Source of the DNA: Escherichia phage RB49
Sequence record: NC_005066.1
Strand: one strand, 5' to 3'
DNA length: 64,000 bases
The notes beneath the pieces are model-generated. The model had not been told where the DNA came from, did not search any database, and saw nothing but the letters and a program-made list of their open reading frames with translations. The position numbers and the translations under genes were made by a program. Shown in pieces: positions 2,840 to 36,387 of the stretch. The stretch's first letter is position 1. Every line of letters begins with the position of its first letter.

Positions 2840-3139
2840 TTAATCTTTTTTCAATGCATCCATTACTCGCTCTGCGATCAGTTCTCGTAAGCACTGATAA
2901 CCATGATATTTGATGGCAATGTCACGCAGATCATTAACCAGTTCCCGTACTTCATGGTCTTTCAGATCGTCTCTGTATTTCGATTTAACCGTGTCTTTAG
3001 GTGAATTGTGGATAACCTGAAAACCTTGTTCTGCAATCACTGCGGCTTCGCGCTGGCGTTCATGCTGTACTGTATTTTTGATCAGGTCTGCTTCCATGAA
3101 CTTTGCCATACTCATCATCATGTTATTCTTTTTGCTCAT
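2840..3139 (-). CDS. hypothetical protein
   Basis: 100 aa; ATG at 3137-3139 (MSKKNN...) preceded by GAGGA; ORF-track N-terminus is translated promoter sequence. Confidence 0.45.
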   Translation of the reverse strand: MSKKNNMMMSMAKFMEADLIKNTVQHERQREAAVIAEQGFQVIHNSPKDTVKSKYRDDLKDHEVRELVNDLRDIAIKYHGYQCLRELIAERVMDALKKD

Positions 3140-3204
3140 TATTAAATCCTCATAAAAGAAAAGGGAGACTCCCATTATAGAGAATCTCCCTTGTATGTCA
3201 AGTG
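3140..3204 (-). promoter_or_regulatory. early-promoter/stem-loop cassette
   Basis: minus strand TTGACA-N16-TATAAT flanked by GGGAGA/TCTCCC inverted repeat, between gene 39 stop and next ORF. Confidence 0.5.
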
Positions 3205-5028
3205 TTATGATTGCATCCAAATTTTGCGCTGATCTGCATCTTCACTATAGAGCAAATCGAATAGCTCTTTATAGTTTTCCGGTAACGTGATGATCTCCAT
3301 GACAGGATCGTTGATCACGCGATGATAGTCTGATTCTGTGAGCGATGCTAAACCTTTGATATATCGAATGTTGTAACCTTTGATATTATCTCGGTCGTTC
3401 TCGAAATCTTCTAGGTCATAATACCATCGAACATCATCACCTTTCTTTGGTTCCGCAATGATAATAGGTGTTTTGATAAACCGGATTCGTCCATCTTCGA
3501 ACAATTCAGGCCAACGTGCAAAGAAAGAGATCAGACTAGGTTTAATAGACCCGATCCCGTCAGTATCAGCGTCTGTCATAATCGCAATATTTTTGTATTG
3601 CATAACGTCCAGCGCATCAACACCAAATTGCAAACCAGTGATCGCCATGATGTTAAAAATTTCGGCGTTCTTAACGATCTTTGCCTCTGGTTGTTCCCAC
3701 GTTGTAAGAGTTTTACCTCGCAACGGGAAACCGCCATGTAAATCTTGATCACGTACAGAGATCAGATAGTTGATCGCGGAATCACCTTCCGTCAAAAACA
3801 GGGTAGTTTCTGCGTCAGTTCCAATAAGGTTAGCTTTAACGTGTTTTGCTACCTTAGCCCGTTTCGCTGCCTTTGCTGCCTTAGTCGCTGCCGCTTTATC
3901 TGCTGCCTCTTTGCGTGCCAGGACTACAGCAATAATAGGCATGATAATGTTTTCTTTCTTCGCAATGACTTTAGCCAGCTTTTTAAAATCAAGATCAATA
4001 TGACGCTTGATATCACCAGTCGGGTTAGTCAAGCGTTCTTTTGTCTGTGAATCAAAACGAAGGTTAGGCAATTCACGAACAATAAGAATACAGGTCAATC
4101 CAGATTTAACCGCAGCTTTAGTAACATCAACCTTATATTCTTTCTTGATTCGTTTTACAATCTCTTCACAAAGATCATCTGTCACATAATCAACGTGTGT
4201 TCCCCCGTTTTTGGTAAACAGACCGTTAGCAAAGGATACTGATTTAAAACCTTCTCCCTCGACCGCAGGAACTAGGGCAAGTGAAAAGTTTTTATCTTCA
4301 ATGACAAACGGATCATCATTGTATAGTTTAGCATAATCCTTGAACTTACTAACAATACGTTTACCATTAAACTTAAACGTGATCTTAGGAAATATTACGC
4401 TCAATGATTGCAGACGATCATGAACAATATCTAAAACAGAGTTGTCCATCATATAACCTTCGAAGTGGTCGAAGTCTGGACAAAATGTAACATTTGTTCC
4501 CTTCAATTTTGATGGTTTCGATGACCATGTGATATTTTCAGCACCGTTTGTACATTGAACGGTCATTTCTGTTTCGCCGTCACAGGTCACACCAGTAAAC
4601 CAATCGCTAAAGAAATTTGATAACGACGACCCAACACCGTTCATCCCTTGCGTTAATCGATTGGTATCATCAAAGTTAGACCCTGCTTTTGTTCGTGTCC
4701 ATGCGGCTACAGGTTGCGGAATCTGCGTACCCTCTGGGGTAGTAACCATATGTTGAGGAATACCGCGACCATTGTCTGTTACCGTAACAATATTGTTTTG
4801 GATATCGACGCTAATCACATTGGCAAATTCAAAGTTAGTGCGGATCGCCTCGTCTACAGAGTTGTCGATGATCTCATCAATGATTTTAACCAGTCCAGGA
4901 ACGTATGAAATTTTTGTCCATTTACCGAACAGGAAACGTTGATGTTCTTCGTAAGTTGTTGATCCTATATACATTCCTGCACGCTTAAGGACATGTTCAC
5001 GATCAGATAAAATGCGAAACTCACTCAT
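3205..5028 (-). CDS. 39: DNA topoisomerase II large subunit, fused gp39+gp60 type (GyrB-like ATPase + Toprim)
   Basis: 607 aa; GHKL ATPase motifs (DNGRGIP), Toprim region (MTDADTDG), C-terminal ...RKIWMQS matching the gp60 end; position after rIIA. Confidence 0.9.
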   Translation of the reverse strand: MSEFRILSDREHVLKRAGMYIGSTTYEEHQRFLFGKWTKISYVPGLVKIIDEIIDNSVDEAIRTNFEFANVISVDIQNNIVTVTDNGRGIPQHMVTTPEGTQIPQPVAAWTRTKAGSNFDDTNRLTQGMNGVGSSLSNFFSDWFTGVTCDGETEMTVQCTNGAENITWSSKPSKLKGTNVTFCPDFDHFEGYMMDNSVLDIVHDRLQSLSVIFPKITFKFNGKRIVSKFKDYAKLYNDDPFVIEDKNFSLALVPAVEGEGFKSVSFANGLFTKNGGTHVDYVTDDLCEEIVKRIKKEYKVDVTKAAVKSGLTCILIVRELPNLRFDSQTKERLTNPTGDIKRHIDLDFKKLAKVIAKKENIIMPIIAVVLARKEAADKAAATKAAKAAKRAKVAKHVKANLIGTDAETTLFLTEGDSAINYLISVRDQDLHGGFPLRGKTLTTWEQPEAKIVKNAEIFNIMAITGLQFGVDALDVMQYKNIAIMTDADTDGIGSIKPSLISFFARWPELFEDGRIRFIKTPIIIAEPKKGDDVRWYYDLEDFENDRDNIKGYNIRYIKGLASLTESDYHRVINDPVMEIITLPENYKELFDLLYSEDADQRKIWMQS

Positions 5029-20565: not shown

Positions 20566-21222
20566 CGCGATCATATAAGATACGGTTTCACTTGCCAGCC
20601 ATACAGCCTTACGGCGAGTGAAGCTAAGTTTGTAATCGCCGAAGTCAGTAGCAACCAGTTTCATGTTATCTTTACGAATAAAGAAATGGAAGTCTGCTGT
20701 TCCTGTATATTCGCCCATATCAAGACAAAACATCTCATTAGGATTATTTTTGTCAATCTCTTCCCAACCTTTGATCATCAGACGACCATCAATCGGAAGA
20801 AATTCAAGGCGATCCACTTTAAGCTGATTGCTCATTTTCATAAGCTGTTTCAGATCGTCGTTGCTCAGTTCGTAATCTACATCGCTTGCAGGTGGAGTAA
20901 CTCGGCCTTTCGGTGATACGATAGCAGCAGCACTAGCACCAGGATAATTAATTTTCAGACGATCATTAGACACACGAATGTTACCAGTGCGGTTATCAAC
21001 CGTAATATCTGCTTCATCGCCTACCAGATTCAGAATACCCAAGAAAGAGTTAAGATCATAGATCCCAATTTCGTGTTCCAGTTCTTGATTCAGAGTCGCT
21101 TCACCATATACAACGTTTGTCATGTTTTTGGTGATCAGGACGTTTCCTTTTTTCAGGATGATACCTGGGTTAATAGCGGAAAAGTTTTTCAGGGTAGCAA
21201 TGGTTTCTTTAGTCAGTTTCAT
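20536..21222 (-). CDS. 45: sliding clamp
   Basis: 228 aa; MKLTKETIATLKNF... collinear with T4 gp45. Confidence 0.88.
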   Translation of the reverse strand: MKLTKETIATLKNFSAINPGIILKKGNVLITKNMTNVVYGEATLNQELEHEIGIYDLNSFLGILNLVGDEADITVDNRTGNIRVSNDRLKINYPGASAAAIVSPKGRVTPPASDVDYELSNDDLKQLMKMSNQLKVDRLEFLPIDGRLMIKGWEEIDKNNPNEMFCLDMGEYTGTADFHFFIRKDNMKLVATDFGDYKLSFTRRKAVWLASETVSYMIACDLDSSYTD

Positions 21223-21252
21223 CAAATCACCTTTATCATGTTAATCAATTAA

Positions 21253-21651
21253 TTACGGGTTTACTTCGTGCTCATTTTGAATCTTTAGCATTCTTTCGAT
21301 AAATTTTTTCTCGGCTTCCTTGTCGGATGAGTGAGTATACTTCAATCCAATGTAAGCTGTCAAGTATTGTTGCAGAGCATAGACAGTAACAGGATTCTTT
21401 GCGGTCTTTTTGCCGTCGAGATATACCAGATCACCACGAACATCAAACGCAAGTTTACGACGAATCACATCATCAACAAATTTATCTAGGACAAAATACC
21501 ACTCAATACACTCTATCCCGTGACGGTAGTTCATTACATCATTATCTTTGATATAGTCAAACGGAATATGACATAATTTACTATTTTGTAGGATGAATAG
21601 CATTTGTTCTTTTAAGCTCATACGTTTCATTCTATCACTTCCCATCAGCAA
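21253..21651 (-). CDS. hypothetical protein (position of T4 rpbA)
   Basis: 132 aa immediately upstream of 45; start uncertain. Confidence 0.45.
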   Translation of the reverse strand: MLMGSDRMKRMSLKEQMLFILQNSKLCHIPFDYIKDNDVMNYRHGIECIEWYFVLDKFVDDVIRRKLAFDVRGDLVYLDGKKTAKNPVTVYALQQYLTAYIGLKYTHSSDKEAEKKFIERMLKIQNEHEVNP

Positions 21652-22042: not shown

Positions 22043-22273
22043 TCACGTTCTAAAGTTTGTTGCAACCCCAGCATCAGGGTAATCAAGTTTATCAAAGTTG
22101 GGGACCAGCATAAACTCATGATGACGACAAGACAACATTTTTGTTATGTCTTCATCGCTGTATATGCTGTTTTTCATATCCCCCATACTAACTACATATT
22201 CTTCACCGGAATATAGATTGATTAAGGTATACAATTCTAACTCCGGCTGCGTTACTCTGTCAAATGTTAACAT
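22043..22273 (-). CDS. hypothetical protein
   Basis: 76 aa ORF between 46 and 45. Confidence 0.4.
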   Translation of the reverse strand: MLTFDRVTQPELELYTLINLYSGEEYVVSMGDMKNSIYSDEDITKMLSCRHHEFMLVPNFDKLDYPDAGVATNFRT

Positions 22274-23942
22274 TCATTTCAGTGAATCGCCCACGTTTAA
22301 CCATCTTGAGATGACGGCTAAAATCATCAGGGTTATGGTCACGATGGCTGATAATATACACGTTATCATCTAACTTGTCAATGATGGAATCAAGTGCTTT
22401 TACGCCCTGAACGTCCGTAGCCCCATCATAAATTTCGTCGAGTACCAACAAAGAAATATTAGTACCAGATACTTTACCAGCAACATCACGCCATGTAAAG
22501 AGCATCGCAAGGTCAATACGTGCTTTTTCGCCTTGACTGAATGATGTATACGAAAACGATTCACGCCCCCGTGATTTGATTGTTTCGTTAAACTCTTCAT
22601 CTAACGTAAAGATATAATCCGCTTCCATGATATCAAGATAATACGCAATCCGATCATTGAAATATGGAATATATTTCTTGACGATAGACGCCTTAACACC
22701 GGAATCCTTCAACATTTCTGTTACAAATCCACGGTGATATTTTTCAAGAACTAGCTTTGATTTTTCATTAGTAATCTCTACCAGTTCGTGTTCCAGTTTA
22801 GCAAGTTCTTCGGAATTGTCAACTCTTTCTTTTTGTAATTCCTGAATTGCTTTCTGGATCTGTTTAGCCCGACCTACAGATGCCGTTAAATTTGCTCTCT
22901 GTGACTCTATAGCGCGTTTAATTTCCAAGACCTTAGTTTGTGCTGTCTGGAAAGAATTGGCTTTCTCTGCGTATTCTACGCGTTTCTCGTCAATAAGAGA
23001 CAGTTTATGTTCGGCTTGTGCTTTTTGTTCGCGTACAGCCTGATCATTACCCTGAATGATCGGTTGTGTGCACGTAGGACAGATCCCGCCTTTCTCGTGC
23101 ATATGGATAACACGATCAAAGTTCTGGATCTGTGCACCAATCTGTGCGATAGCCGTATTGATTTTAGCCAATGCCGCGCTAGGATCTTCCGGCATAACAA
23201 CAGCCAATAGCTCATCGGTCAAGCGCGTTTCTTCGGCTTTAAATGCTTTAGCCGATTCTACCTCTTTATCATACATATTCTGTAAACGCTGGAGATTCTC
23301 GGCACTCGCCTTGCTAGCGTCTTCTATGTACTTTTTATGAGTGTTGATTTGTTGCTGAACGTGATTAGCTTTCATTTCCTGCATTTGGATATTCTGGGTA
23401 ATCTCGCGCACATACGCTTTATTCAGTTTATCCATTTCGCCTAGCGTAGCAATATCAAGCAAATCCTCAACCAGTTTACGGCGACCCGCTGCCGGAAGAC
23501 TCATAAACGGAACATAACCAGCAGTGCCTAAAACAACGATCTGTTTAAAGCTGGCTAGGTTCATGCCTATGATACCTTCAAAATATTCCTGAAAGTCTTT
23601 GGTGCTTGCGCTCTCGTCGATCTTTTGACCGTCGCGATGCACTTCGAATACTTCCGGTTTTTGACCACGTTTGATATAAAACTCTTTCCCGTCCAGTTCA
23701 AACCAGACTTCGACTAACAGTTTCTTTTTGTTGACGCTGTTAATCAATTGGCCTTTCTTGATACTACGAAACGGTTTACCGAACAACACAAAGCAAAGCG
23801 CCTCGATCATGGTCGATTTACCAGCACCGTTAACACCAGTGATTAGTGTCTTTTTGAATCCGTCTAGCTGAATCTCAACAGGTTCAGCACCCACGCTCAT
23901 TATATTTTGATAGCGCAAGGTTTTAAAATTTAACTTTGCCAT
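22260..23942 (-). CDS. 46: recombination nuclease ATPase subunit (Rad50/SbcC-like)
   Basis: 560 aa from ATG 23940-23942 (MAKLNF...); Walker A GVNGAGKST, long coiled coil with CPTC zinc hook, Walker B LLVLDE. Confidence 0.88.
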   Translation of the reverse strand: MAKLNFKTLRYQNIMSVGAEPVEIQLDGFKKTLITGVNGAGKSTMIEALCFVLFGKPFRSIKKGQLINSVNKKKLLVEVWFELDGKEFYIKRGQKPEVFEVHRDGQKIDESASTKDFQEYFEGIIGMNLASFKQIVVLGTAGYVPFMSLPAAGRRKLVEDLLDIATLGEMDKLNKAYVREITQNIQMQEMKANHVQQQINTHKKYIEDASKASAENLQRLQNMYDKEVESAKAFKAEETRLTDELLAVVMPEDPSAALAKINTAIAQIGAQIQNFDRVIHMHEKGGICPTCTQPIIQGNDQAVREQKAQAEHKLSLIDEKRVEYAEKANSFQTAQTKVLEIKRAIESQRANLTASVGRAKQIQKAIQELQKERVDNSEELAKLEHELVEITNEKSKLVLEKYHRGFVTEMLKDSGVKASIVKKYIPYFNDRIAYYLDIMEADYIFTLDEEFNETIKSRGRESFSYTSFSQGEKARIDLAMLFTWRDVAGKVSGTNISLLVLDEIYDGATDVQGVKALDSIIDKLDDNVYIISHRDHNPDDFSRHLKMVKRGRFTEMNVNI

Positions 23943-24186
23943 TAATCCACTCCGCAATCACACATTCCATAATATTAAATGCTAACACATCTTCATCAAT
24001 GTTGTAAACACTTGCCGCCTTCACTTTAACTAGTGTGTCTCTGCGATCTGGCAACATGATCACATAATCCAGTGTCGCCGGGTCATATGTCATAAAGGGA
24101 TCAACGTAAATCCCTTTATTCAATGCCAGATATTCGCGAAGACCTTCTATAACCCTGTGTCTAAGGTAGGTCATCGATAGAATCAT
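23923..24186 (-). CDS. hypothetical protein
   Basis: 87 aa ORF between 47 and 46. Confidence 0.45.
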   Translation of the reverse strand: MILSMTYLRHRVIEGLREYLALNKGIYVDPFMTYDPATLDYVIMLPDRRDTLVKVKAASVYNIDEDVLAFNIMECVIAEWINGKVKF

Positions 24187-24767
24187 TTTAGTTTATGTTC
24201 CTCTAAAAATTCTTCAATTTCACCTTGCAGGTCTTCCGCTTGTTGTTCCAGAATATCGCGAAATTCACCTACAGTCAAGCGGTAATCACACTTCACCAGT
24301 CGATGTGGGAGAATATACCCTTTATACATCGTCTCTGACGCTTCCAGGAATACCCCACTATGCATGACAGAGATCCAACCTGTTAGCGTCAATGGAGTAT
24401 TCGGAAAATAATATTTGCTGGATTGTTTCCACTGGACGAAAGCACCATATACAATCGGATTATATTCACCAACCACACTCTTAATAATGGATTCTACTTT
24501 GTCTTTTACAAAGTCGCCAATGTCCATAGTTATCATCAACTCTTTTGGATTAATGATTTTAAGGTAACGACGGTAGCCGTCATCATACCACATCTTAACA
24601 ACTGACCGATCAATATTCGCTTTCAGATAGCCATAGATCGGATTCTTGTAATATGATTGTTTTAGTGTGTATGTGTGCACCAATTTAATAAAATGTTCCA
24701 TTACCAACAAATCAGAATCAGCCGCGACCATAGTCGTATTCATAATATGTTCCTCGTTCAATCTCAT
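24183..24767 (-). CDS. hypothetical protein
   Basis: 194 aa ORF between 47 and 46; start uncertain. Confidence 0.45.
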   Translation of the reverse strand: MRLNEEHIMNTTMVAADSDLLVMEHFIKLVHTYTLKQSYYKNPIYGYLKANIDRSVVKMWYDDGYRRYLKIINPKELMITMDIGDFVKDKVESIIKSVVGEYNPIVYGAFVQWKQSSKYYFPNTPLTLTGWISVMHSGVFLEASETMYKGYILPHRLVKCDYRLTVGEFRDILEQQAEDLQGEIEEFLEEHKLK

Positions 24768-25035
24768 ATTGTTTCAGGTCTTCTAAAAGTTCATCCACTG
24801 CTTGTTTCAGCACATGACGCAGCGTAAAGTAATAGCTTTCATCAAATTCTATTTCCGCGCGAGGAATAGAGCGAAACTTACACTTAACGGTAGTATCAGT
24901 GAGTCGCTTTTCGACCATCATCCGAACTTCTTCATTCTCTTTGGAATACCATACATCAACGGAGATCCCCTTACGTCGAGCAAACATAGGCAATGCCGCA
25001 TTAAATTCCATTACCTTTTGTGCAATTGTTTTCAT
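24718..25035 (-). CDS. hypothetical protein
   Basis: 105 aa ORF between 47 and 46. Confidence 0.45.
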   Translation of the reverse strand: MKTIAQKVMEFNAALPMFARRKGISVDVWYSKENEEVRMMVEKRLTDTTVKCKFRSIPRAEIEFDESYYFTLRHVLKQAVDELLEDLKQYEIERGTYYEYDYGRG

Positions 25036-25295
25036 CGTACAGACCCCATAGATCCACGCGCAATAACATTCTGGGTAATATCAGCAACCTTATGGGATAC
25101 GATGTTTGTTAGCCCCTCTTTGGTGATATTTTCACGATCAAATGGGATTTCGTCATGAGTCCACAAACCATAGTTAGACCGAAATGATAGCATATACTGA
25201 CCATCTCGCACAACCTCAAATACATGGATCTTAGTGAATTTCGACAAACCTTCGTTGATTTCTTTCAGTGCATTAGTAATCATAACAACCTCCAA
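25032..25295 (-). CDS. hypothetical protein
   Basis: 87 aa ORF between 47 and 46. Confidence 0.45.
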   Translation of the reverse strand: MEVVMITNALKEINEGLSKFTKIHVFEVVRDGQYMLSFRSNYGLWTHDEIPFDRENITKEGLTNIVSHKVADITQNVIARGSMGSVR

Positions 25296-25338
25296 TCAAT
25301 TTTTTAGAGAGTATAACGGGGATTTCTCCCCGCGTCAA

Positions 25339-26364
25339 CTAACTTTTTGCGCTATTTACTTCGGCTAAAAGTTCATCAGAAATACGCTTAACTGCCGCAA
25401 GTTCTTCCGGTTCTAGGTTTTGTTCTTCCAGATATTCATAGACCATCTGAATGGTGCTTTTAACTTCAATAACACCTGTTTCCTGTGATGCGCTACTCTC
25501 CAGCTTATGGACCACTTTTAGCTTGTGCACAACGGCCTCTAACGCGCTTTCTAACTTAGTTAACCCATTATCAGCGACCGTTGTGATAAGACGCACACTA
25601 AGCCCCTTAAAGCGTTCTACGTCGATTTTATCATCTGACGGGTAAGTGATACGCACATGATAAGTTTTATCATTCTGGATAAACTCTTTTTTGTGTGTAT
25701 CGGTATCGAATACCCAAAAACCACGCGGATCGTTTTCGTCACCCGCCGTTAGTGTGTATGGTGTACCGATATACGTTACGTTACCGCCATCACTGATAGT
25801 ATGAAAGTGACCGGAAAACACTTCACGGTATTTCTTGAGGAAGTCCGCGCTATAACCTTCGGATTTTAGCCCTTTATAGAAATAGTAGCCAGACAATTCC
25901 CAATGGCCTACACAATATTCACTGAATGAGTTTTGAATAAACTCTAAAATCTCTGATTTATTGTCATCACAAAACCACGGGAACAGATCAAATGATACAC
26001 CATCAAAGGTAACTGTTTCCGGTTTATCAATGACCTTAATGCAATCATATTGGCTTAACACTTCACGCGGTGCGTTAGGCTGGATCTTGTTTCGTTTAAA
26101 CATATCATGATTTCCGACCGTGATATAACAAGTAATACCAGCCTCTTCCAGTAACGGGATAATTTTCGTTCTATTAAAACGCATAGTTGCATGTGTGATT
26201 GCTTTTCGGCAATCAAACCAGTCCCCTGTCTGAATCCATGCCTTAATATTATGTTTTTTTGAATAATCGACTGCCTTTTTAATAGTATCAAGAATATACT
26301 CATGTATCCACGGATCATCGTTGCCGATACCAGTATGCAGATCACCTAAAAGCAAAATTTTCAT
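25339..26364 (-). CDS. 47: recombination nuclease subunit (Mre11/SbcD-like phosphoesterase)
   Basis: 341 aa from ATG 26362-26364; motifs GDLH, GDWFD, GNHD, GHWE, GHFH. Confidence 0.88.
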   Translation of the reverse strand: MKILLLGDLHTGIGNDDPWIHEYILDTIKKAVDYSKKHNIKAWIQTGDWFDCRKAITHATMRFNRTKIIPLLEEAGITCYITVGNHDMFKRNKIQPNAPREVLSQYDCIKVIDKPETVTFDGVSFDLFPWFCDDNKSEILEFIQNSFSEYCVGHWELSGYYFYKGLKSEGYSADFLKKYREVFSGHFHTISDGGNVTYIGTPYTLTAGDENDPRGFWVFDTDTHKKEFIQNDKTYHVRITYPSDDKIDVERFKGLSVRLITTVADNGLTKLESALEAVVHKLKVVHKLESSASQETGVIEVKSTIQMVYEYLEEQNLEPEELAAVKRISDELLAEVNSAKS

Positions 26365-26379
26365 ATTATACATAATCTC

Positions 26380-26934
26380 CTAAAAATTTTTAACACCATA
26401 TTCACCAAAATAAAGATCAACCGCTTTGTCATAAGCTCTAGCCGCATCTTCTTCGTTGACATAATACCCAAGAGATATTAGTTTATCATTATTTCGTATT
26501 CTTGCAACCCATTTCTTCGTATGTTTATGCCAGCTAACTCCTTTATACTTGCTTGCTTTATTCTTGTACTTTCCAACGTTACAAGCATTTTTCTTTGCGT
26601 CGGACTCTCTAAGATTGCGCGGTGCGTTGTTTAAAGGATTTCGGTCTATATGATCTATAATTTCTGGTTGTGTTCCATGCTCAAGAAACCATACAACACG
26701 ATGTACATATGGCTTTAAAACCCTCCCATTATCCATAACGATTGCAATTTGGAGATGATCCTGACTTTTAAAAGTTTTTACTTTATCTCCTGCCTTATAA
26801 AACTTTCCTTCGTAATTCTTTCCTCCGGCTCGGCTATTCTTTAAATGATAAAGAATACCCTCATCGTCATGTCTATATCTTTCTCTTATAATTCGTTGCG
26901 TTTCTTCATCCCACAATTTGGAACGTCTACTCAT
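26380..26934 (-). CDS. HNH homing endonuclease with AP2 DNA-binding domain
   Basis: 184 aa; HNH core VHRVVW...HIDRNPLNN...NLR; AP2-like YKGVSWHKHTKKWVARI...LGYYVNEEDAARAYD. Confidence 0.75.
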   Translation of the reverse strand: MSRRSKLWDEETQRIIRERYRHDDEGILYHLKNSRAGGKNYEGKFYKAGDKVKTFKSQDHLQIAIVMDNGRVLKPYVHRVVWFLEHGTQPEIIDHIDRNPLNNAPRNLRESDAKKNACNVGKYKNKASKYKGVSWHKHTKKWVARIRNNDKLISLGYYVNEEDAARAYDKAVDLYFGEYGVKNF

Positions 26935-27024
26935 AGTCTCTTCCTCTCTTCGTTTTCGATGCTCTCACTATATCACAGAAAAATAAAAAGGGAAACCCCT
27001 TTCAGAGTCTCCCTTATAAAGCCA

Positions 27025-27312
27025 TTACAGCATACTTAATACAGTTTGCCGTGTACTAATCCACATAGCAGAAAGCAGTTCTGGCGTGTGTGGCTGTTTG
27101 TAGATATCACGTAACTTTCCGATAGCGTAGATATACGCATCACGGTTATCATCGATGATAGCTTGTTCAGCCCACCGCTTAAGGCGTGCAATCTCTCGCG
27201 AGTTCTTACGCAAGATCTTTTCCGCTTTCTTAGCGGCTTTAGCCTCTAGTTCTGCTTGTACTTTGTCTACTTCATTCACTGCAATCTGGTCATGCTGTTC
27301 ATCGTAAGTCAT
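27025..27312 (-). CDS. hypothetical protein
   Basis: 95 aa ORF between HNH gene and 55. Confidence 0.45.
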   Translation of the reverse strand: MTYDEQHDQIAVNEVDKVQAELEAKAAKKAEKILRKNSREIARLKRWAEQAIIDDNRDAYIYAIGKLRDIYKQPHTPELLSAMWISTRQTVLSML

Positions 27313-27313
27313 G

Positions 27314-27547
27314 TTATTTTACCTCTGGGATATAATCAATTATTAAAGAAAATTCATCTTCTGATACATTATAGCTATGTGAGATTGTACCCGTAAAGAC
27401 CTCAAGATCCGGTGATTTGATATTGCACGGATCGATAATCACCGGAACGCCGCAATCTCTCAAAAATAATTTGGCGAAATACGGCACGAGGTCAGTTTCA
27501 AACTCTGCTTCTTCCAGCAAACGGGAAATGTTAATTTTCAATCTCAT
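27314..27547 (-). CDS. hypothetical protein
   Basis: 77 aa ORF adjacent to 55. Confidence 0.45.
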
Positions 27548-28064
27548 AAAATTGGTCCAAGCTAGGCAATTCCTCGGTCAATACATCTTCAACCTTTGGC
27601 GCTTTCGGTTTATTGACCGATTCCTCGTAGTTGTTGATTTTATCGTAAATGTCCTGTATGAATGCCTCATCAGCAATCTGGCACATATCAGCGTCGCGTT
27701 CGTCATATACATGATGCACAAAATATTTGTATTTTGCGGCTGTCGCTGTTCTCTCTTTTTTAATGCGCTGTACAAAAGCATTAAAGCACGCTTGCGTGAT
27801 GTAAGCATGAGGATTTTTATACTTTGTCTCGTCAAAATTAATCAAACCCTTGACCGCCGCTTCGATTCCGTCGTCGATCATTTCTTCGCGCCATGTTTGA
27901 CTATAACCAGAAAAGTTAAAACGACGTGATAGATTTTTAGAGATTTGCATAATTGCTAGGCCGATTTGATCGCTCATTGGAACTTGCCGACCTTGTGCTG
28001 CAATTTGTTGTTTCCAACGGCAAATTTCTTCGTAAAGCTCTTTATTGTTTACATAATCAGACAC
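27531..28064 (-). CDS. 55: late-transcription sigma factor
   Basis: 177 aa; SRRFNFSGY...[30 protein letters not shown] collinear with T4 gp55. Confidence 0.88.
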
Positions 28065-28104
28065 TTCGCACCCTCGCTATTATTTAGGAAATAACCCTTT
28101 CGGG

Positions 28105-29574
28105 CTATTCCCCATTACCATTATACTTTCTTTGCTTAGTTATCCACACTCTAACCATCTCTACAGATTCACCGTCAGACGGATCAAGAGTTTTTCCTTT
28201 TTTCTTCATGCGGTACTTAAATCCGTTAAATCTTGCATTCTCTTGCTCGTTAAAGTCGAACATCTTTTTAAATGATTTTCGCCCTTTACGCTCACCGCAT
28301 TCTAGCGGAATCATTCGGTCTGTTATTACATTGGCATTAGGTAGAAACGTTTTTAGATAATCTACCAACGCCCAATCAGGAACATATAGATTAACATTCT
28401 CCTTGCTCTCGTTGTCTCTCAGGTTACAACGCAAACATAATTGAAATGCTGGTTCCAGATAATCAGACACATGACGCGCTTTCAAAAACTCGTTTGTCGG
28501 GAGATCACAACTATTAGCAAGACCTTTTAAAATATCAATCTCCCATCGTTGAGGGTTAAAGCTGAACATCACAGCAACATTTTTATGATGAATGTAAGAG
28601 TTAAGACCATAAGATCCGTAAGGTATCCGCTCACCAATACCATTTGTACACGCTTCACGGTCCCGATTCACGGTATAAATGAAGTCATCACCACATTCAT
28701 TTTTAACCATATCAACAAGACGTTCAAAGGTATTGTTTGTTTCTGACTGGTGACGCGACCATCGTTCGGAGTCCGTCATAAGGATGATGTTAACTCTATC
28801 TGTATTTTTATACTCTTTGAAATATAGTCTGGATTCTAGCGCACTCGGAACAAAATCGCAATTTGCATAGTATCGTAGATACTTCCCACTATATGTATCA
28901 AAGAGATTTGCACATGCTATCGTAACCTTTTTAAAGTCTCCCCACGTACCGTGTTTGTTATCGTTCAAGAAAACAATTTTCGACCCATTCTTCCGGTGTC
29001 CTTCGTTATGTTTTACCATAACGTTGATTTTCTTCTCTAATAACGCCTCATAAAGCCCTCTAAGAGAAGAATCGATCATATCAGTACCATCCTTTGCACT
29101 TTCTATCTTTTCTTTGATAGCGGCCTTCTCAGAGTCTTTTAGAACTAAGTTCTGTAGGCATTCCGATTCGTCGGCGATTGGTTCGCAATGCTTCGTGATA
29201 AGTTCAAGATTAGACTTAAACGGATACTCATTAAATTCAACCAGTTGAGGAACTTCATCAATGTAAAGAGCATATTCACCAAACATTTTTGAACGTTCCA
29301 TATTAGATAACGCTGTATGTGTAATGAATATCACATCAGCACCGTCTTTAACTGATTGCATTATCGACGCTTGCACTGTCTTAAGGCTTCTTAGTCTGGT
29401 GCTATCAATCAAGACAGCACGACCGCCCATTCTTTTAAACTTATTGTAAGATTGTTCACTTAAAACACGAGATGGCGAAGCAATAACCGCTTTTTCTTTT
29501 GTCTCTAGGACGTGGGAAAGTATAGCATCAGTTTTCCCCGCCGCTGGCAATGCGATTAATGTTTCAATCTTCAT
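28105..29574 (-). CDS. uncharacterised P-loop NTPase (helicase-like N-terminal domain, novel C-terminal domain)
   Basis: 489 aa; Walker A ALPAAGKT at residues 8-15, Walker B ALYIDEV; no T4 counterpart at this position. Confidence 0.6.
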   Translation of the reverse strand: MKIETLIALPAAGKTDAILSHVLETKEKAVIASPSRVLSEQSYNKFKRMGGRAVLIDSTRLRSLKTVQASIMQSVKDGADVIFITHTALSNMERSKMFGEYALYIDEVPQLVEFNEYPFKSNLELITKHCEPIADESECLQNLVLKDSEKAAIKEKIESAKDGTDMIDSSLRGLYEALLEKKINVMVKHNEGHRKNGSKIVFLNDNKHGTWGDFKKVTIACANLFDTYSGKYLRYYANCDFVPSALESRLYFKEYKNTDRVNIILMTDSERWSRHQSETNNTFERLVDMVKNECGDDFIYTVNRDREACTNGIGERIPYGSYGLNSYIHHKNVAVMFSFNPQRWEIDILKGLANSCDLPTNEFLKARHVSDYLEPAFQLCLRCNLRDNESKENVNLYVPDWALVDYLKTFLPNANVITDRMIPLECGERKGRKSFKKMFDFNEQENARFNGFKYRMKKKGKTLDPSDGESVEMVRVWITKQRKYNGNGE

Positions 29575-30300: not shown

Positions 30301-30773
30301 TTCTCAGCCTTTAATCTTTCTAGTTCTTCTTCCAGTTCCTTGATCCGTTGGTCACGTTCAAAGTCACGCTGTAGCTTAGTGGCGAATACTCGTTTAAACT
30401 GATTGTAATCATCGATTTTAAACACTTCTTCTTCGCCATAGCGACGCACAGAAACTTCGTAGTTATTGAAGAATTGTTGCATCATTGCTTCGGATGATAG
30501 TTCTGCTGATACCACTTTAAAATATTGATCTTCGGTAGGTGAAAACCAATTACAAGCATAAAGATAAACCTTTTCATTGTCTGGACACTGGTAAGCCTTA
30601 CCATCGATTTCAATCACAGAAACATATTCAGGTATACTAGATGAATCAATAGCTAAGACTTTAAACGCACGGTCCCCGATAAACTCGGAGATCACACGAT
30701 TCGCATCACTGGTTGCAAATGCTTTACGCGCTTGTTCGTTTTTCCACTGATAGGTCATACCAACAACAAACAT
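30297..30773 (-). CDS. repeat-domain paralog family protein (1 repeat + coiled-coil tail)
   Basis: motifs VGMTYQWKNE, IEIDGKAY, WFSPTEDQYF; ATG 30771-30773. Confidence 0.5.
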   Translation of the reverse strand: MFVVGMTYQWKNEQARKAFATSDANRVISEFIGDRAFKVLAIDSSSIPEYVSVIEIDGKAYQCPDNEKVYLYACNWFSPTEDQYFKVVSAELSSEAMMQQFFNNYEVSVRRYGEEEVFKIDDYNQFKRVFATKLQRDFERDQRIKELEEELERLKAEK

Positions 30774-30774
30774 A

Positions 30775-31599
30775 TTACCAACCTCGCTCTTTACCAATCA
30801 AAAATTCAACTTCACGACGTTTAATGTCTTCTTGAAGGTCTTTAATCTTCTGGCGATCTTGCATGATTTCATCCATCTTGTCAAGTGCCGCAATGAAATC
30901 ATCGAAACGTTCAAAGGTTTTACCTTCATTTGCTTCGCCAAATTTAACCATTGTCAGGCCGTAACGACTACTAAACAGACGTTTCAACTGTCCAACGATT
31001 TTAGAATCAGTGGTTATAACTTCCAATTCTTCTACTTCACGAAAGAATTTTCTATCAGAATCAATAAACCAGCTAGTTCCTTTATGGTCTCTATCTTCGG
31101 TTGCGCTCATTAGAGTATGGTCTTTACCATCAATTTCAATTACATCAATTTGCCCACATGGACGAACATTTTTAACAGTAAAAGGTCTATAATTTATTGC
31201 TCGTGCAATAACATAATTAAGATTAGATACGTTTTCAGCATAATGACAGAAGTCGGTCATAGCCTTATCATCTTTCCAAGTATAAGTTTTACCAACTTCC
31301 CATTTCTGGGGAACTTCTTCAACTTCACGAAAGAATTTTCTATCAAATGGACTAAAGAAATATGTTGCAGTCCAAATGTCTTTTCCTGTAGCAGTTTTCG
31401 CCGTATGATAAACACCGTCTAGCTCTATTGCATCAATCCAACCGTTACCCTCGATCTCGATGATGGTAAATGGCTTGTCACCAATAGCTGCACTGATATC
31501 GCTGTTAAGTGGAGAAAGAACACCTTCTCCGTTAGTAATAAACTCAGTTTTAGCGTTTTCATCTTTCCAAGTGTAAGTTTTACCAATTTCCCATTTCAT
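30775..31599 (-). CDS. repeat-domain paralog family protein (2 repeats)
   Basis: WEIGKTYTWKDE and WEVGKTYTWKDD; IELDGVYHT and IEIDGKDHT; DRKFFREVEE twice. Confidence 0.5.
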   Translation of the reverse strand: MKWEIGKTYTWKDENAKTEFITNGEGVLSPLNSDISAAIGDKPFTIIEIEGNGWIDAIELDGVYHTAKTATGKDIWTATYFFSPFDRKFFREVEEVPQKWEVGKTYTWKDDKAMTDFCHYAENVSNLNYVIARAINYRPFTVKNVRPCGQIDVIEIDGKDHTLMSATEDRDHKGTSWFIDSDRKFFREVEELEVITTDSKIVGQLKRLFSSRYGLTMVKFGEANEGKTFERFDDFIAALDKMDEIMQDRQKIKDLQEDIKRREVEFLIGKERGW

Positions 31600-31611
31600 A
31601 ATATATTCCCC

Positions 31612-32076
31612 TTAACCGATTTTATCAAGTTCGTTTAATGCTTTCTCAGCTTCCTGTATAGCTTGCACTCTTTCCGGCATTTTGTCAAGAAAATCTTTCA
31701 ACTCTTCAAAACTGGAGATATGACGCAAGGCGTTAGCACCGATAGCCGCATGTGATTTGCATTCAAAGCGGATTTTATAATTATCCATCGCCAATTTGAG
31801 AAGATCAATTAATTTAGATTCTTCTGGAATAATAATTTCTTCAAATCTGCTACGGTCATGATCCAGAAACCAACAAGATAGACCTACATCGGTTGAACTC
31901 ATATAAGTTCCATCATGAAGATAAACAGACCGCACGTATCCTTTTTTCGCATCAACCGACGCAACTTTAAACGGTAATCGCAGATATTTCAAATAATCAA
32001 CATCATACCATTTAAAAAATTGGTTTGCATCTTTTACATCTTTCCACGCATAGGTCTTACCAGCTTCCAATTTCAT
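31612..32076 (-). CDS. repeat-domain paralog family protein
   Basis: MKLEAGKTYAWKD, LHDGTYMS, WFLDHDRSRFEE. Confidence 0.5.
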   Translation of the reverse strand: MKLEAGKTYAWKDVKDANQFFKWYDVDYLKYLRLPFKVASVDAKKGYVRSVYLHDGTYMSSTDVGLSCWFLDHDRSRFEEIIIPEESKLIDLLKLAMDNYKIRFECKSHAAIGANALRHISSFEELKDFLDKMPERVQAIQEAEKALNELDKIG

Positions 32077-32080
32077 AATA

Positions 32081-32608
32081 TCATCTCTCATTTTTGATAC
32101 GTGATTCTAATTGGATCATACGGTCTCGCGTTTGTTTGTATTCTCGGATAGCACCGATCCGGCTAGGCATACCATCCAGTACGCTCTTAATACCTTCTAG
32201 GGTAGTAATTTTGGCAATGCTATTATGCAACCCCATCTTATCGATCAACTGAATGTCGTAGGCTTCCATAAGCAGACCCAGGCGTTCTAAAGTTAGGTCT
32301 TCTTCTTTTTCTTCTGAATCTGGAATCTTAGGTTCAATAGTAACTTCGGTAAAGAAACGACGCTCACCCGACCAAAACCACACACCGGAACAGCCAATAG
32401 GGGATTCTTTTAACGTCATAGAGTCGAAATTACTACCAATAATAGTAATTTCTCTAACATCACCATCATCGTCAAGGTCTTCTACCCTAAACGGGCGACC
32501 AGCCAACAAGTCAACAATACATCTGTTAATAGACGACGAAAATTTAGTCAGTTCGGCTTTCGACGCTTCGCATTCAATCTTGTAAGTTTTACCAACTTCC
32601 CATTCCAT
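32081..32608 (-). CDS. repeat-domain paralog family protein
   Basis: MEWEVGKTYK, WFWSGERRFFTEV; ATG 32606-32608 with GAGGTGA SD. Confidence 0.5.
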   Translation of the reverse strand: MEWEVGKTYKIECEASKAELTKFSSSINRCIVDLLAGRPFRVEDLDDDGDVREITIIGSNFDSMTLKESPIGCSGVWFWSGERRFFTEVTIEPKIPDSEEKEEDLTLERLGLLMEAYDIQLIDKMGLHNSIAKITTLEGIKSVLDGMPSRIGAIREYKQTRDRMIQLESRIKNER

Positions 32609-34524: not shown

Positions 34525-36387
34525 TTACATGTGCTTAACGCGGTTTACCATCTCGGAGTGTTTCCCGTGGTTGAATGGACGCAGATCAACAGATCCAAGA
34601 TATCCACTAACGCGACGGATAACATTCATCTTTTCCAGATTGTCATTGCCGCAATCAGGACAAACAAAACCAGACTCGGTCGCTCTCATTTCCTTAGTAG
34701 ATCCGCATACATGACATACATCAGAAGGAGTATTAACACCGAAGTAGTGCAATTTATCCATTGCATAGTCTACTACAGTTTCAAGACCTTTCAGGTTGTT
34801 TTTCATGTCTGGGAACTCAACATAAGAGATCATGCCACCGGACGCCAGCCAGTGATAATCTTTCTCAAAGTCGATTTTCTCAAATGGAGTGACTTTCCGG
34901 TCTACGTCAAGGTGGAATGAGTTGGTGTACCAGTCTTTATCGGTAGCACCCTTAACAATACCAAATTGCTCTCGGTCCAGTCGATTAAATCGATAGCAAA
35001 GGCTCTCGGCTGGCGTACCGTAAAGACTAAACCCAAGTCCGGTTTCATCCTTCCATTTTTCAGTATAATGACGCAAGATCTTAAGAATATGTTTACCGTA
35101 TCGCTGCGCATCTTCCGAATCAAACGGATGAACACCAAACAGGACGCTCAATACCTCATGTAAACCAATATATCCAAGAGAGATACTAGCGCGACCATCT
35201 TTCAGAACTTCCAAAATTTCATCGTTTTGATGAATACGGAAAAATGCACCTTCTGTATACAGTACAGGAGCAACATTGGCTTTAGCCCCTTTTAAAGCGT
35301 CTACGCGACTCATGAGCGCATCAAAGCAAATAGGCATACGATTAGCTAGCTCTTGTTCGAATAGCTCAATTCTGCGCATTACAGACGCTTTACCAGCACG
35401 ACGCGCGGCAATAAGGGCAATACGCGGAAGATTTAGAGTCACAACACCTAAGTTATTACGTCCGTCTAATACTTCTTCGCCTTTCTCATTATGCCACACA
35501 CCCAGGAAGCTACGACAACCCATCGGGCTAACCGGAACACTAGATCCGGTGATACTACGGTTATTCTTCGCAGAGATATAATCAGGGTAAAGACGCTTAC
35601 TAGAACATTCCAATGCAAGTTGCTTAATGTCGTAGTTCGGATCTTCTGGTTTAAGGTTTAATCCTTCTTCTAAGAACATCACCAGCTTAGGAAACACCGG
35701 AGTTATACCATCTTTACCTAAACCTTTAGTTCGAACTTTCAGGATCGCTTTCTGAATCAGTTTTTCTTCCCAGCTAGTACCCATACCAAAGGTTAAAGTC
35801 ACAAAAGGCGTTTGACCGTTGGTGGAGAACAAAGTGTTGATCTCATATTCCAACGCCTGATATCCGTCTAACGTTTCTTTTTCTGTCTTCTCTTGTGCAT
35901 AGAGAGTATCAGCTTTGATTCCGTAGGTTTCGGCATCAGCAAGGTGTTTATGATATGTTTTCTTAACATACGGTGCTAACACCTGATCGATGTTTGCAAT
36001 TGTGGTCCCGCCATATTGATGACTTGCCACCTGTGCGATAATTTGAGCGGTTACAGCACATGCAACACCGATCGATTTAGGACTTTCGATTTGTGCGCTA
36101 CCCAATTTAAAACCATTCTCTAACATGTCTTTGAGATTAACAAGACAGCAGTTAGTAAACGGCATAGCGGGTGCATAATCCATATCATGATAATGAATAT
36201 CACCATCTACATGCGCTTTATAGATGTGCTCAGGTAACACGGTTTTAGCAATCTGTTTAGACACAGCGCCAGCAATCAGATCTCGACGTGTCGGGAATGT
36301 TCGCGCGTCTTTGTTCGCGTTCTCTTTACTTACTTCGTTTTCTTTACCCGTTGCGATCTCTGTAATGTCTTTGATTAGTTTTTCCAT
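34525..36387 (-). CDS. nrdD: anaerobic ribonucleoside-triphosphate reductase (glycyl radical enzyme)
   Basis: 620 aa; C-terminal zinc ribbon CHVCGS..CPDCG and glycyl radical motif RVSGYLG; uninterrupted ORF. Confidence 0.92.
   Translation of the reverse strand: MEKLIKDITEIATGKENEVSKENANKDARTFPTRRDLIAGAVSKQIAKTVLPEHIYKAHVDGDIHYHDMDYAPAMPFTNCCLVNLKDMLENGFKLGSAQIESPKSIGVACAVTAQIIAQVASHQYGGTTIANIDQVLAPYVKKTYHKHLADAETYGIKADTLYAQEKTEKETLDGYQALEYEINTLFSTNGQTPFVTLTFGMGTSWEEKLIQKAILKVRTKGLGKDGITPVFPKLVMFLEEGLNLKPEDPNYDIKQLALECSSKRLYPDYISAKNNRSITGSSVPVSPMGCRSFLGVWHNEKGEEVLDGRNNLGVVTLNLPRIALIAARRAGKASVMRRIELFEQELANRMPICFDALMSRVDALKGAKANVAPVLYTEGAFFRIHQNDEILEVLKDGRASISLGYIGLHEVLSVLFGVHPFDSEDAQRYGKHILKILRHYTEKWKDETGLGFSLYGTPAESLCYRFNRLDREQFGIVKGATDKDWYTNSFHLDVDRKVTPFEKIDFEKDYHWLASGGMISYVEFPDMKNNLKGLETVVDYAMDKLHYFGVNTPSDVCHVCGSTKEMRATESGFVCPDCGNDNLEKMNVIRRVSGYLGSVDLRPFNHGKHSEMVNRVKHM

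What the first reader, a model, noticed from the sequence alone, without database searches (positions are those of the whole stretch)
26380..26934. Free-standing HNH-AP2 homing endonuclease adjacent to gene 47
The 184-aa ORF combines an HNH nuclease motif with an AP2 DNA-binding domain, the architecture of mobile homing endonucleases. Its position next to a conserved replication/recombination gene is typical of intronless homing, where such genes spread by cutting alleles that lack them.
Basis: partly seen in the sequence, partly recalled or inferred. Interest (0 to 1): 0.45.

Follow-up and report, generated by a model that had tools for sequence, protein, structure and literature searches.

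The report
Known RB49 HNH-AP2 homing endonuclease gene
This is a real selfish "homing endonuclease" gene, already published as ORF040 of coliphage RB49, sitting exactly on the start codon of recombination gene 47; most sister phages have a clean empty site there, so it is an ordinary member of a known class.

Summary
ORF 26380-26934 (- strand, 184 aa) carries an HNH_3 nuclease domain and an AP2 DNA-binding domain, with the catalytic residues intact and a confident I-HmuI-like + AP2 model. The protein is identical to RB49ORF040c (NP_891611), described in 2006-2010 papers as an AP2-HNH putative homing endonuclease absent from phage phi1. It is therefore already known.

New detail found here:
- **Insertion.** It is a 570-bp insertion flanked by a 5-bp TCATA repeat, placed exactly on the native ATG of gene 47. 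The endonuclease gene takes over gene 47's ribosome-binding site and start codon and supplies a new AGGAG for gene 47.
- **Distribution.** 54 of 57 Krischvirus records have the precise empty site.
- **Linked patch.** Comparing 16 carriers with 10 non-carriers gives only 15 fixed differences in about 6.5 kb. All lie in a 70-bp, mostly synonymous patch of gene 47 (26254-26323), 40-110 bp from the insertion.
- **Backgrounds.** The insert plus patch is nearly invariant, while the flanks are as diverse as, and interleaved with, those of non-carriers.

This is the population signature of intronless homing, with a probable target in the 5' end of gene 47. Cleavage and homing have not been tested. Interest is low.

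The parts
26380..26934 (-). Homing endonuclease ORF (184 aa plus TAG stop), identical to RB49ORF040c. It has an N-terminal beta-sheet module (aa ~20-62), an HNH nuclease (aa 76-117; H78, D94, H95, N103, N107, N116) and an AP2 DNA-binding domain (aa 128-171).
26365..26934 (-). 570-bp insertion relative to empty-site Krischviruses. The boundaries are ambiguous within the 5-bp direct repeat TCATA at 26361-26365 and 26931-26935. G+C is 35.6%, against 39.7% for gene 47 and 40.2% for the window.
   Evidence: Alignment A1, sequence, composition
26365..26382 (-). 3' end of the insert, which re-equips gene 47. It reads TAG(stop)GAGATTATGTATAAT followed by the native ATGAAA. An AGGAG Shine-Dalgarno overlaps the endonuclease stop codon. 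The extra in-frame ATG (26371-26373) would add M-Y-N to gp47 (344 aa against 341 aa). The RNA here is unstructured.
25339..26364 (-). Gene 47 (Mre11/SbcD-like recombination nuclease subunit), native 341-aa frame. It is the host gene immediately downstream of the endonuclease gene and probably co-transcribed with it.
26254..26323 (-). Endonuclease-linked recoded patch in gene 47 (native nt +42 to +111, codons 14-37). It holds all 15 fixed differences between carriers and non-carriers. At codon level, 9 codons change synonymously and 4 change the residue (G15N, V20I, E33D, E37K). This is the proposed recognition/cleavage region in non-carrier genomes and the immunity determinant in carriers.
26161..26253 (-). 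Distal part of the endonuclease-linked haplotype block (gene 47 allele 'type A', 17 SNPs against the majority non-carrier allele). It is shared by all 16 carriers, but also by the non-carriers Phi1 and GoldenSnicker.
26935..27024 (-). Intergenic leader between a-gt.4 and the endonuclease gene, shared unchanged with empty-site genomes. It contains the a-gt.4 terminator hairpin (26988-27015), an extended -10-like TGATATAGT (26967-26975; read from the sequence only) and a GAGG Shine-Dalgarno (26943-26946) 8 nt before the ATG. These were gene 47's own expression signals and now serve the endonuclease gene.
   Evidence: terminator also annotated in GEC-3S and G5211

Best explanation
The ORF is a free-standing homing endonuclease gene of the HNH-AP2 class, RB49 ORF040. 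It is a 570-bp selfish insertion placed precisely on the start codon of recombination gene 47.

Shown:
- The enzyme has an I-HmuI-like N-terminal module with an intact His-Me-finger active site, and a C-terminal AP2 domain.
- The insert uses gene 47's former leader, ribosome-binding site and ATG, and hands gene 47 a replacement AGGAG, so the host gene is not disrupted.
- Most sister phages have the exact empty site.
- The insert travels as one nearly invariant block with about 205 bp of the 5' end of gene 47, inside otherwise freely recombining genomes.

Inferred:
- In a mixed infection the enzyme binds, through AP2 and the N-terminal sheet, a site in the 5' end of gene 47 of a non-carrier genome. 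The most likely location is native nt +42 to +111.
- It nicks or cuts there. By analogy with I-HmuI, MobA and MobE, a single-strand nick later converted into a break at a replication fork is the more likely event.
- The break is repaired by the T4-type recombination machinery, using the carrier genome as template. This copies the patch and the endonuclease gene into the recipient.
- The 15 substitutions in the carrier's own patch protect it from self-cleavage.
For: - **Domains and active site.** HNH_3 and AP2 both score above the Pfam cut-offs. In a 54-sequence alignment H95 and N107 are invariant, and H78, D94, N103 and N116 are at least 90% conserved.
- **Fold.** The AlphaFold2 model has pLDDT 93.2. 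The best PDB match is the homing nickase I-HmuI, 1u3e (102 columns, probability 1.0). AP2 domains follow: TEM1, WRI1 and ERF1, rmsd 1.2-1.7 A (sequence-level match to WRI1 at 7.5e-10).
- **Identity.** The protein is an exact match to RB49ORF040c.
- **Empty sites.** 57 Krischvirus records match the region, and only MIZ4, MIZ5 and JK32 carry the ORF. The gap is exactly 570 bp, on the ATG of gene 47, with a TCATA repeat at both ends.
- **Same site everywhere.** All 16 metagenomic places shown have the order a-gt.4 | endonuclease | 47.
- **Linked patch.** The 15 fixed carrier/non-carrier differences all lie in 26254-26323, with none elsewhere in 13.2 kb (3 carriers against 10 non-carriers) or in 6.5 kb (16 against 10). 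At codon level, 9 changes are synonymous and 4 are not. No non-carrier record exceeds 95% identity over 26130-26379.
- **Diversity.** Among carriers, diversity is 0.002-0.005 in the endonuclease gene and 0.01-0.06 in the flanks. Outside the patch, between-group divergence equals within-group diversity.
- **Backgrounds.** The nearest flank neighbours of carriers are often non-carriers.
- **Asymmetry.** The linked block runs about 205 bp into gene 47 but less than 45 bp upstream.
- **Selection.** The two endonuclease haplotypes differ by 6 synonymous and 2 conservative changes.
- **Family mobility.** Paralogues 42-51% identical occupy at least four other sites in Krischvirus genomes, and the 46/47 module of RB16 and Matisse.
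- **Established knowledge.** Free-standing T4-type endonucleases cut at a distance from their insertion site, co-convert flanking markers, and the HNH Mob enzymes nick (review PMC2988022).
Against: - No biochemical or genetic test of this protein exists in the searched literature. Cleavage, its strandedness and its position are all inferred.
- The patch lies only 40-110 bp from the insert, so perfect linkage could reflect proximity alone rather than selection for immunity.
- The 40 nt between insert and patch are identical in carriers and non-carriers. The patch therefore looks like a short imported segment whose origin is unexplained, and no donor allele was found.
- I-HmuI-type enzymes can cut both carrier and non-carrier DNA, so an immunity patch is not obligatory.
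- The interleaving of flanks could come from ordinary recombination after a single old insertion rather than from repeated homing.
- The element is rare among isolates (3 of 57), which is not what an efficient ongoing drive would give on its own.
Confidence: 0.8

Rival explanations
1. Same element, different target. The enzyme recognises the intact a-gt.4/gene 47 junction itself (...GAGGAAGAGACTATGAAAATTTTG...), as intron-encoded endonucleases do. Immunity then comes simply from the insertion splitting the site. The gene 47 patch would be a hitchhiking remnant of the foreign DNA that first brought the element in.
For: The insertion is exactly at the ATG, with 5-bp microhomology. The patch is physically so close that linkage needs no selection. 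The structural relative I-HmuI cuts within a few bp of its insertion site (established knowledge; 1u3e match). The patch extends as a roughly 20%-diverged tract to 26161 in most comparisons, like an imported gene fragment.
Against: Free-standing T4-type endonucleases characteristically cut away from their insertion site (PMC2988022). The 40 nt next to the junction are identical in both allele classes, so a contiguous foreign tract is not what is seen. The linked block is strongly one-sided toward gene 47. Two of the four amino-acid changes (G15N, V20I) fall in the two G-rich elements of the non-carrier allele (GGTGGCG and GTGGGTG), the kind of sequence AP2 domains prefer (quoting Magnani 2004).
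Confidence: 0.3
2. Inactive or decaying relic. The gene was inserted once, no longer homes, and its patchy distribution reflects vertical descent plus ordinary recombination and loss.
For: It is rare among isolates, 3 of 57. No activity data exist. A frameshifted C-terminal variant (189 aa) circulates in metagenomes.
Against: All catalytic and structural residues are intact. The model is confident. The haplotype differences are 6 synonymous to 2 conservative. The gene is nearly invariant across 16 genomes whose flanks differ by 1-6%. That pattern implies recent spread rather than old vertical inheritance. The 189-aa variant alters only the last residues, beyond the AP2 domain.
Confidence: 0.1
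3. Domesticated function. The protein serves the phage as a DNA-binding regulator of the 47-46 operon, or as a weapon that excludes competing phages or satellites, rather than acting mainly as a selfish element.
For: AP2 is a transcription-factor domain. The gene is the first cistron of the gene 47 transcription unit. Endonuclease-mediated marker exclusion and co-option of such domains are documented in other phages (PMC2988022; PMC10448857).
Against: 54 of 57 close relatives do without it, so it is dispensable. The intact HNH active site argues against a purely regulatory role. Marker exclusion is mechanistically the same process as homing, so it is not a true alternative.
Confidence: 0.07

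Closest known systems
RB49 ORF040c (NP_891611.1 / AAQ15315.1), 'AP2 domain HNH endonuclease'
   Same: Identical over all 184 aa. It holds the same position between gene 47 (ORF039) and a-gt.4 (ORF041). It is listed as an AP2-HNH mobile element (PMC1524935), as the single HNH-AP2 endonuclease gene of RB49 (PMC2993671, Table 5), and as an RB49-specific 'novel HNH-type homing endonuclease' absent from phi1 (PMC2839356).
   Different: Nothing at the sequence level. The papers read here do not report the exact insertion point, the takeover of the ribosome-binding site, or the linked patch in gene 47.
I-HmuI (Bacillus phage SPO1 intron-encoded HNH nicking endonuclease, PDB 1u3e)
   Same: It is the best structural match to the N-terminal two-thirds, covering the DNA-binding beta-sheet and the HNH beta-beta-alpha-metal motif. 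It is monomeric and modular, with an extended DNA-binding architecture.
   Different: I-HmuI is intron-encoded and ends in a helix-turn-helix domain, whereas this protein is free-standing and ends in an AP2 domain. Sequence identity is only 24% over 102 columns. Nicking activity is not tested here.
T4 MobE / MobA (free-standing HNH endonucleases)
   Same: They are free-standing HNH genes in T4-type phages, lying beside a conserved DNA-metabolism gene. They nick a site in the neighbouring gene and are over-inherited in crosses (PMC2988022). The proposed genetic logic is the same.
   Different: The C-terminal DNA-binding region is different. Petrov et al. count 'mob-like HNH' and 'HNH-AP2' as separate categories. 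No direct sequence comparison was made here.
T4 SegF / SegG (GIY-YIG free-standing endonucleases; intronless homing)
   Same: They are inserted between genes and cut inside a neighbouring conserved gene at a distance. The carrier allele is protected by nucleotide polymorphisms, and flanking markers are co-converted (PMC2988022).
   Different: The nuclease superfamily is different (GIY-YIG, double-strand cut), and so are the target genes.
RB16 'putative homing endonuclease 2' and Slopekvirus (Matisse) homologues
   Same: They are the closest homologues outside the genus (about 46-47% identity, full length). They share the HNH-AP2 architecture and sit in the same 47-46 recombination module.
   Different: They are inserted immediately downstream of gene 46, not upstream of gene 47. 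RB16 carries a second endonuclease gene upstream of gene 46.
HNH-AP2 endonucleases of cyanobacteria and ciliates, and the ICP1 'IPA-HNH' endonuclease genes
   Same: The domain order is the same: N-terminal HNH, C-terminal AP2. AP2 is reported to prefer GC-rich DNA (Magnani 2004, as quoted in PMC10448857).
   Different: The ICP1 versions have HNH domains too divergent for the HNH_3 profile, whereas this one matches HNH_3 directly. The hosts and insertion contexts are different.

Membership tests
HNH / His-Me finger endonucleases (Pfam HNH_3, I-HmuI-like) | Profile match above the curated threshold | tested here: met
   PF13392 scores 45.2 bits against a cut-off of 24.8, aa 76-117. phrog_99 E 2.5e-50.
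HNH / His-Me finger endonucleases (Pfam HNH_3, I-HmuI-like) | Catalytic His and metal-ligand/structural Asn residues present | tested here: met
   H95 and N107 are invariant. H78, D94, N103 and N116 are at least 90% conserved among 54 homologues. All are present in the window protein.
HNH / His-Me finger endonucleases (Pfam HNH_3, I-HmuI-like) | Beta-beta-alpha-metal fold | tested here: met
   The AlphaFold2 model has pLDDT 93.2. The top Foldseek PDB hit is 1u3e, I-HmuI, probability 1.0, E 6.3e-4.
HNH / His-Me finger endonucleases (Pfam HNH_3, I-HmuI-like) | Metal-dependent DNA nicking or cleavage | not testable with these tools
   This needs biochemistry. No published assay was found.
AP2/ERF DNA-binding domain | Profile match above threshold, and a three-stranded sheet packed on one helix | tested here: met
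   PF00847 scores 41.0 bits against a cut-off of 33.3. phmmer against WRI1 AP2 gives 7.5e-10. The model has strands 133-136, 141-148 and 151-158 and helix 161-175. rmsd is 1.2-1.7 A to TEM1, ERF1 and WRI1 AP2 domains.
AP2/ERF DNA-binding domain | Sequence-specific DNA binding | not testable with these tools
   Not assayed. The GC-rich preference is known only for other members.
Free-standing homing endonuclease genes (intronless homing) | Stand-alone ORF between genes, not within an intron or intein | tested here: met
   It is a separate ORF between a-gt.4 and gene 47 and leaves both intact.
Free-standing homing endonuclease genes (intronless homing) | Presence/absence polymorphism among close relatives, with a precise empty site | tested here: met
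   3 of 57 records carry it. The gap is exactly 570 bp at the same nucleotide.
Free-standing homing endonuclease genes (intronless homing) | Carrier allele bears linked polymorphisms or a co-conversion tract in the neighbouring target gene | tested here: met
   15 fixed differences are confined to 26254-26323. The linked block is one-sided and runs to about 26161.
Free-standing homing endonuclease genes (intronless homing) | The element is found in several genetic backgrounds (horizontal spread) | tested here: inconclusive
   The endonuclease gene plus patch is nearly invariant, and the flanks are interleaved with non-carrier genomes. Ordinary recombination after a single insertion could give the same picture.
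Free-standing homing endonuclease genes (intronless homing) | Site-specific cleavage of the allele lacking the gene, and preferential (above 50%) inheritance in mixed infection | not testable with these tools
   This requires a cleavage assay and phage crosses.
T4 mob-type HNH endonucleases (MobA-E) | Sequence membership of the mob family | not tested
   No direct comparison was run. Petrov et al. 2010 place HNH-AP2 in a category separate from mob-like HNH.

The most novel reading that the evidence does not exclude
The endonuclease's recognition site lies in the first ~110 nt of gene 47. This region encodes the Mre11-like nuclease subunit that T4-type phages use to process broken DNA ends. The 70-bp recoded patch would then be a selected immunity allele, and it includes amino-acid changes in gp47 itself (G15N, V20I, E33D, E37K). 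On this reading the selfish element targets, recodes and co-transcribes with a gene of the repair pathway it depends on. It would also give the first defined natural DNA target for a phage AP2 domain, with GGTGGCG and GTGGGTG as candidate AP2 contacts.
Probability: 0.4. Interest if true: 0.35.

Novelty: already known. Interest (0 to 1): 0.2.

Why it matters
There is little new in kind. HNH-AP2 endonuclease genes in T4-type phages, and this very gene, have been catalogued since 2004-2010.

The value of this check is practical. It gives a nucleotide-exact insertion site and a concrete 70-bp candidate target and immunity region. It also points to natural carrier/non-carrier pairs (MIZ4/5 against MIZ2/3/6; RB49 against phi1). 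Together these would make it straightforward to obtain the first biochemical and genetic characterisation of a phage HNH-AP2 endonuclease, and the first native DNA target of a non-plant AP2 domain.

Tried and rejected
- **Chance ORF or misannotation.** Rejected on the domain scores, the structure model and conservation.
- **Other copies in the window.** tblastn finds only the ORF itself. The weak hit at 35386-35706 lies inside the NrdD ORF and is chance.
- **A donor for the gene 47 patch.** A distant blastn of 26130-26379 finds no non-carrier record above 95% identity, and nothing outside Krischvirus above about 69%. Exact-pattern scans for the carrier patch found nothing in IMG/VR or in JGI metagenomes, so 'patch without the endonuclease gene' could not be tested there. 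The non-carrier pattern hit only two IMG/VR contigs.
- **More gp47 contexts.** The search for related loci with gp47 returned only 2 Krischvirus contigs. Exact look-ups of the window's gp47 (341 and 344 aa) are not on record.
- **Late promoter or sequestered ribosome-binding site.** No TATAAATA is present in the leader (read from the sequence). The fold shows only the a-gt.4 terminator hairpin and an accessible Shine-Dalgarno. The consensus promoter scan gave no more sites than shuffled sequence (9 against 8.0 +/- 3.4), so the TGATATAGT element is only a reading of the sequence.
- **Packaging-associated HNH (HK97 gp74 type).** Rejected from context, because the gene lies in the early replication/recombination cluster.
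- **Literature.** Magnani et al. 2004 could not be read, as it is not held.

Full report
**1. Observation**

The ORF exists exactly as described: 26380-26934 on the - strand, ATG start, 184 aa.
- Pfam finds HNH_3 at aa 76-117 (E 7.2e-12) and AP2 at aa 128-171 (E 2.4e-10), both above the curated cut-offs.
- PHROGs assigns it to phrog_99, 'HNH endonuclease', E 2.5e-50.
- The next gene downstream on the same strand, 25339-26373, is gp47, the Mre11/SbcD-like recombination nuclease subunit (Metallophos; phrog_100, E 5.8e-125).
- gp46 lies further on at 22260-23957. Upstream lie a-gt.4, a-gt.5 and the late sigma factor gp55.

**2. What genome this is, and whether the gene is known**

The region is 97-98% identical to Krischvirus (RB49-like T4-type) coliphages. 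An exact-sequence look-up shows the protein is identical to RB49ORF040c (AAQ15315.1 / NP_891611.1), which sits on a 164,018-bp contig, the published RB49 genome length. The window is therefore RB49 or a phage indistinguishable from it at this gene.

This gene is already in the literature:
- 'RB49ORF040c, AP2 domain HNH endonuclease', and 'AP2-HNH mobile DNA elements' (PMC1524935).
- RB49 is scored as having one HNH-AP2 endonuclease gene and phi1 none (PMC2993671, Table 5).

Full-text searches turned up no biochemical or genetic test of it. Magnani et al. 2004 is cited for this class but could not be read.

**3. The protein**

An alignment with 53 homologues shows H95 and N107 invariant, and H78, D94, N103 and N116 at least 90% conserved. 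This is the His-Me-finger catalytic set, and all of it is present here.

The AlphaFold2 model is confident (pLDDT 93.2, pTM 0.84).
- Its best match among solved structures is the homing nickase I-HmuI (1u3e), over the N-terminal beta-sheet and HNH module.
- Plant AP2 domains follow for the C-terminus: TEM1, WRI1 and ERF1, at rmsd 1.2-1.7 A.
- The sequence-level match to WRI1 AP2 is 7.5e-10.

In architecture the protein is an I-HmuI-type enzyme whose terminal helix-turn-helix is replaced by AP2.

**4. Empty sites and the insertion point**

Of 57 phage records that match 25000-28200, only MIZ4, MIZ5 and JK32 are fully covered. The other 54 (some are RefSeq/GenBank duplicates) are 82% covered, in two pieces. 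tblastn finds a protein at least 95% identical only in those three.

Alignment with phi1 shows one clean gap of exactly 570 bp. Read in gene sense:
- The empty site is ...GAGGAAGAGAC**TATGA**AAATTTTG..., which is gene 47's Shine-Dalgarno and ATG.
- In the window the same GAGGAAGAGAC**TATGA** now opens the endonuclease ORF (M-S-R-R...).
- The insert ends ...AATTTTTAGGAGATTATGTATAA**TATGA**AAATTTTG.

So the insertion sits on the start codon of gene 47, bounded by a 5-bp repeat (TCATA on the + strand, at 26361-26365 and 26931-26935).

The endonuclease gene inherits the a-gt.4 terminator-to-ATG leader unchanged (terminator 26988-27015; also annotated in GEC-3S and G5211). The insert supplies an AGGAG overlapping its own stop codon, plus an optional extra ATG. 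This explains why gp47 is annotated as 344 aa in carriers and 341 aa in non-carriers. The junction RNA is unstructured. The insert has a lower G+C content (35.6%) than its surroundings, which is consistent with an insertion rather than a deletion in the relatives.

**5. Population evidence**

I aligned 13.2 kb from the window, MIZ4 and JK32 with ten empty-site phages. The carriers share 15 alleles that no non-carrier has. All 15 fall at 26254-26323, and none falls elsewhere.

Adding 13 metagenomic carrier contigs leaves the result unchanged, with the same 15 sites in 6.5 kb. Fifteen of the 16 metagenomic places shown carry the patch, with 0-1 difference. The sixteenth (L029) escaped that pattern test and was confirmed by alignment.

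The patch covers native gene 47 nt +42 to +111 and has these properties:
- 9 codons change synonymously, mostly in a run of consecutive third positions.
- 4 codons change the residue: G15N, V20I, E33D and E37K.
- No non-carrier record in the collection exceeds 95% identity over 26130-26379.

Diversity among carriers is 0.002-0.005 within the endonuclease gene but 0.01-0.06 in the flanks. Outside the patch, divergence between carriers and non-carriers equals diversity within each group. In both flanks the nearest relatives of individual carriers are often non-carriers.

The carrier-linked block actually extends to about 26161, through 17 more SNPs. These are shared with two non-carrier phages, Phi1 and GoldenSnicker, which look like recombinants. 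The block ends within 45 bp upstream of the endonuclease ATG. The two endonuclease haplotypes differ by 6 synonymous and 2 conservative changes.

Taken together, a nearly invariant insert-plus-patch unit sits in many backgrounds, with one-sided linkage into gene 47.

**6. Mechanism**

The shown and inferred steps are listed under Best explanation. Established work on T4 shows three things (review PMC2988022):
- Free-standing endonucleases cut at a distance from their own gene.
- The carrier allele escapes through polymorphisms, and flanking markers are co-converted.
- The HNH enzymes MobA, MobE and I-HmuI nick one strand.

On that basis I propose the following. The enzyme recognises the non-carrier form of gene 47 nt ~42-111 and nicks or cuts there. 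Recombinational repair from a co-infecting carrier genome then copies the patch and the 570-bp insert.

Two of the four amino-acid changes (G15N and V20I) fall in the two G-rich elements of the non-carrier allele, GGTGGCG and GTGGGTG. AP2 domains are reported to favour GC-rich DNA, which makes these candidate AP2 contacts. This is a lead, not a result.

The main rival for the target is the junction itself, with the patch merely hitchhiking. I cannot exclude this, and I put it at about 0.3.

**7. Family context**

Paralogues 42-51% identical occupy at least four other sites in Krischvirus genomes:
- upstream of the tail-completion gene;
- between gene 34 and rnh;
- after the endolysin gene;
- after gene 39.

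The closest homologues outside the genus (46-47% identity) sit just downstream of gene 46 in RB16 and in Klebsiella Slopekviruses. RB16 has a second endonuclease gene upstream of gene 46. The 47-46 recombination module is thus a recurrent landing place for this family.

**8. Verdict**

The finding is a textbook free-standing homing endonuclease gene and an already catalogued one, RB49 ORF040. What this check adds is the exact insertion point, the takeover and replacement of translation signals, the linked 70-bp patch as a candidate target and immunity site, and population evidence for recent spread.

Novelty: already known. Interest: low (0.2). The remaining open points, namely activity, nick versus cut, target position and AP2 specificity, need the bench experiments listed under the next steps.

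Noticed in passing
window 26161-26241 (gene 47): Gene 47 exists as two allele types differing at 17 sites. Type A is found in all 16 carriers and also in the non-carrier phages Phi1 and GoldenSnicker. Type B is found in the other 8 non-carriers. Phi1 and GoldenSnicker look like recombinants with a crossover between 26241 and 26254.
   Followed up: partly
L029-L034 (metagenomic contigs), endonuclease 3' end; equivalent to window 26380-26390: A 189-aa variant of the endonuclease circulates in metagenomes. One extra T in the T-run before the stop shifts the frame, giving ...NFLGDYV*. The new stop lies 1 nt before the native ATG of gene 47.
   Followed up: partly
L047 (AV108), L048 (FL15), L049 (KMB43), L050 (W115): HNH-AP2 paralogues 42-51% identical sit at four other sites in Krischvirus genomes. 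The sites are before the tail-completion gene, between gene 34 and rnh, after the endolysin gene, and after topoisomerase gene 39.
   Followed up: partly
L027 (RB16) 781-1311 and 2995-3570; L028 (Matisse) 3067-3549: RB16 carries two putative homing endonuclease genes flanking gene 46. Klebsiella Slopekviruses carry the homologue of the second one just downstream of gene 46. The 47-46 module is therefore a repeated endonuclease target.
   Followed up: partly
window ~21200-21600, 24400-24800, 30400-30800, 31000-31400, 31800-32200: These short stretches are far more divergent among Krischviruses (5-30%) than the 1-2% background. They are probably allele replacements in small ORFs of unknown function.
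   Followed up: no
OZ035808.1 (L018), labelled 'Krischvirus RB49', 162,105 bp: This record bears the RB49 species name but lacks ORF040 and carries the non-carrier gene 47 patch. It is not the same genome as the RB49 contig of 164,018 bp whose ORF040c is identical to the window protein.
   Followed up: no
window 28105-29574 (-): A 489-aa ORF conserved in all Krischviruses gives a borderline DEAD-box helicase match (27.4 bits against a cut-off of 26) and hits phrog_2467, a family of unknown function. It lies between gp55 and gp55.2.
   Followed up: no
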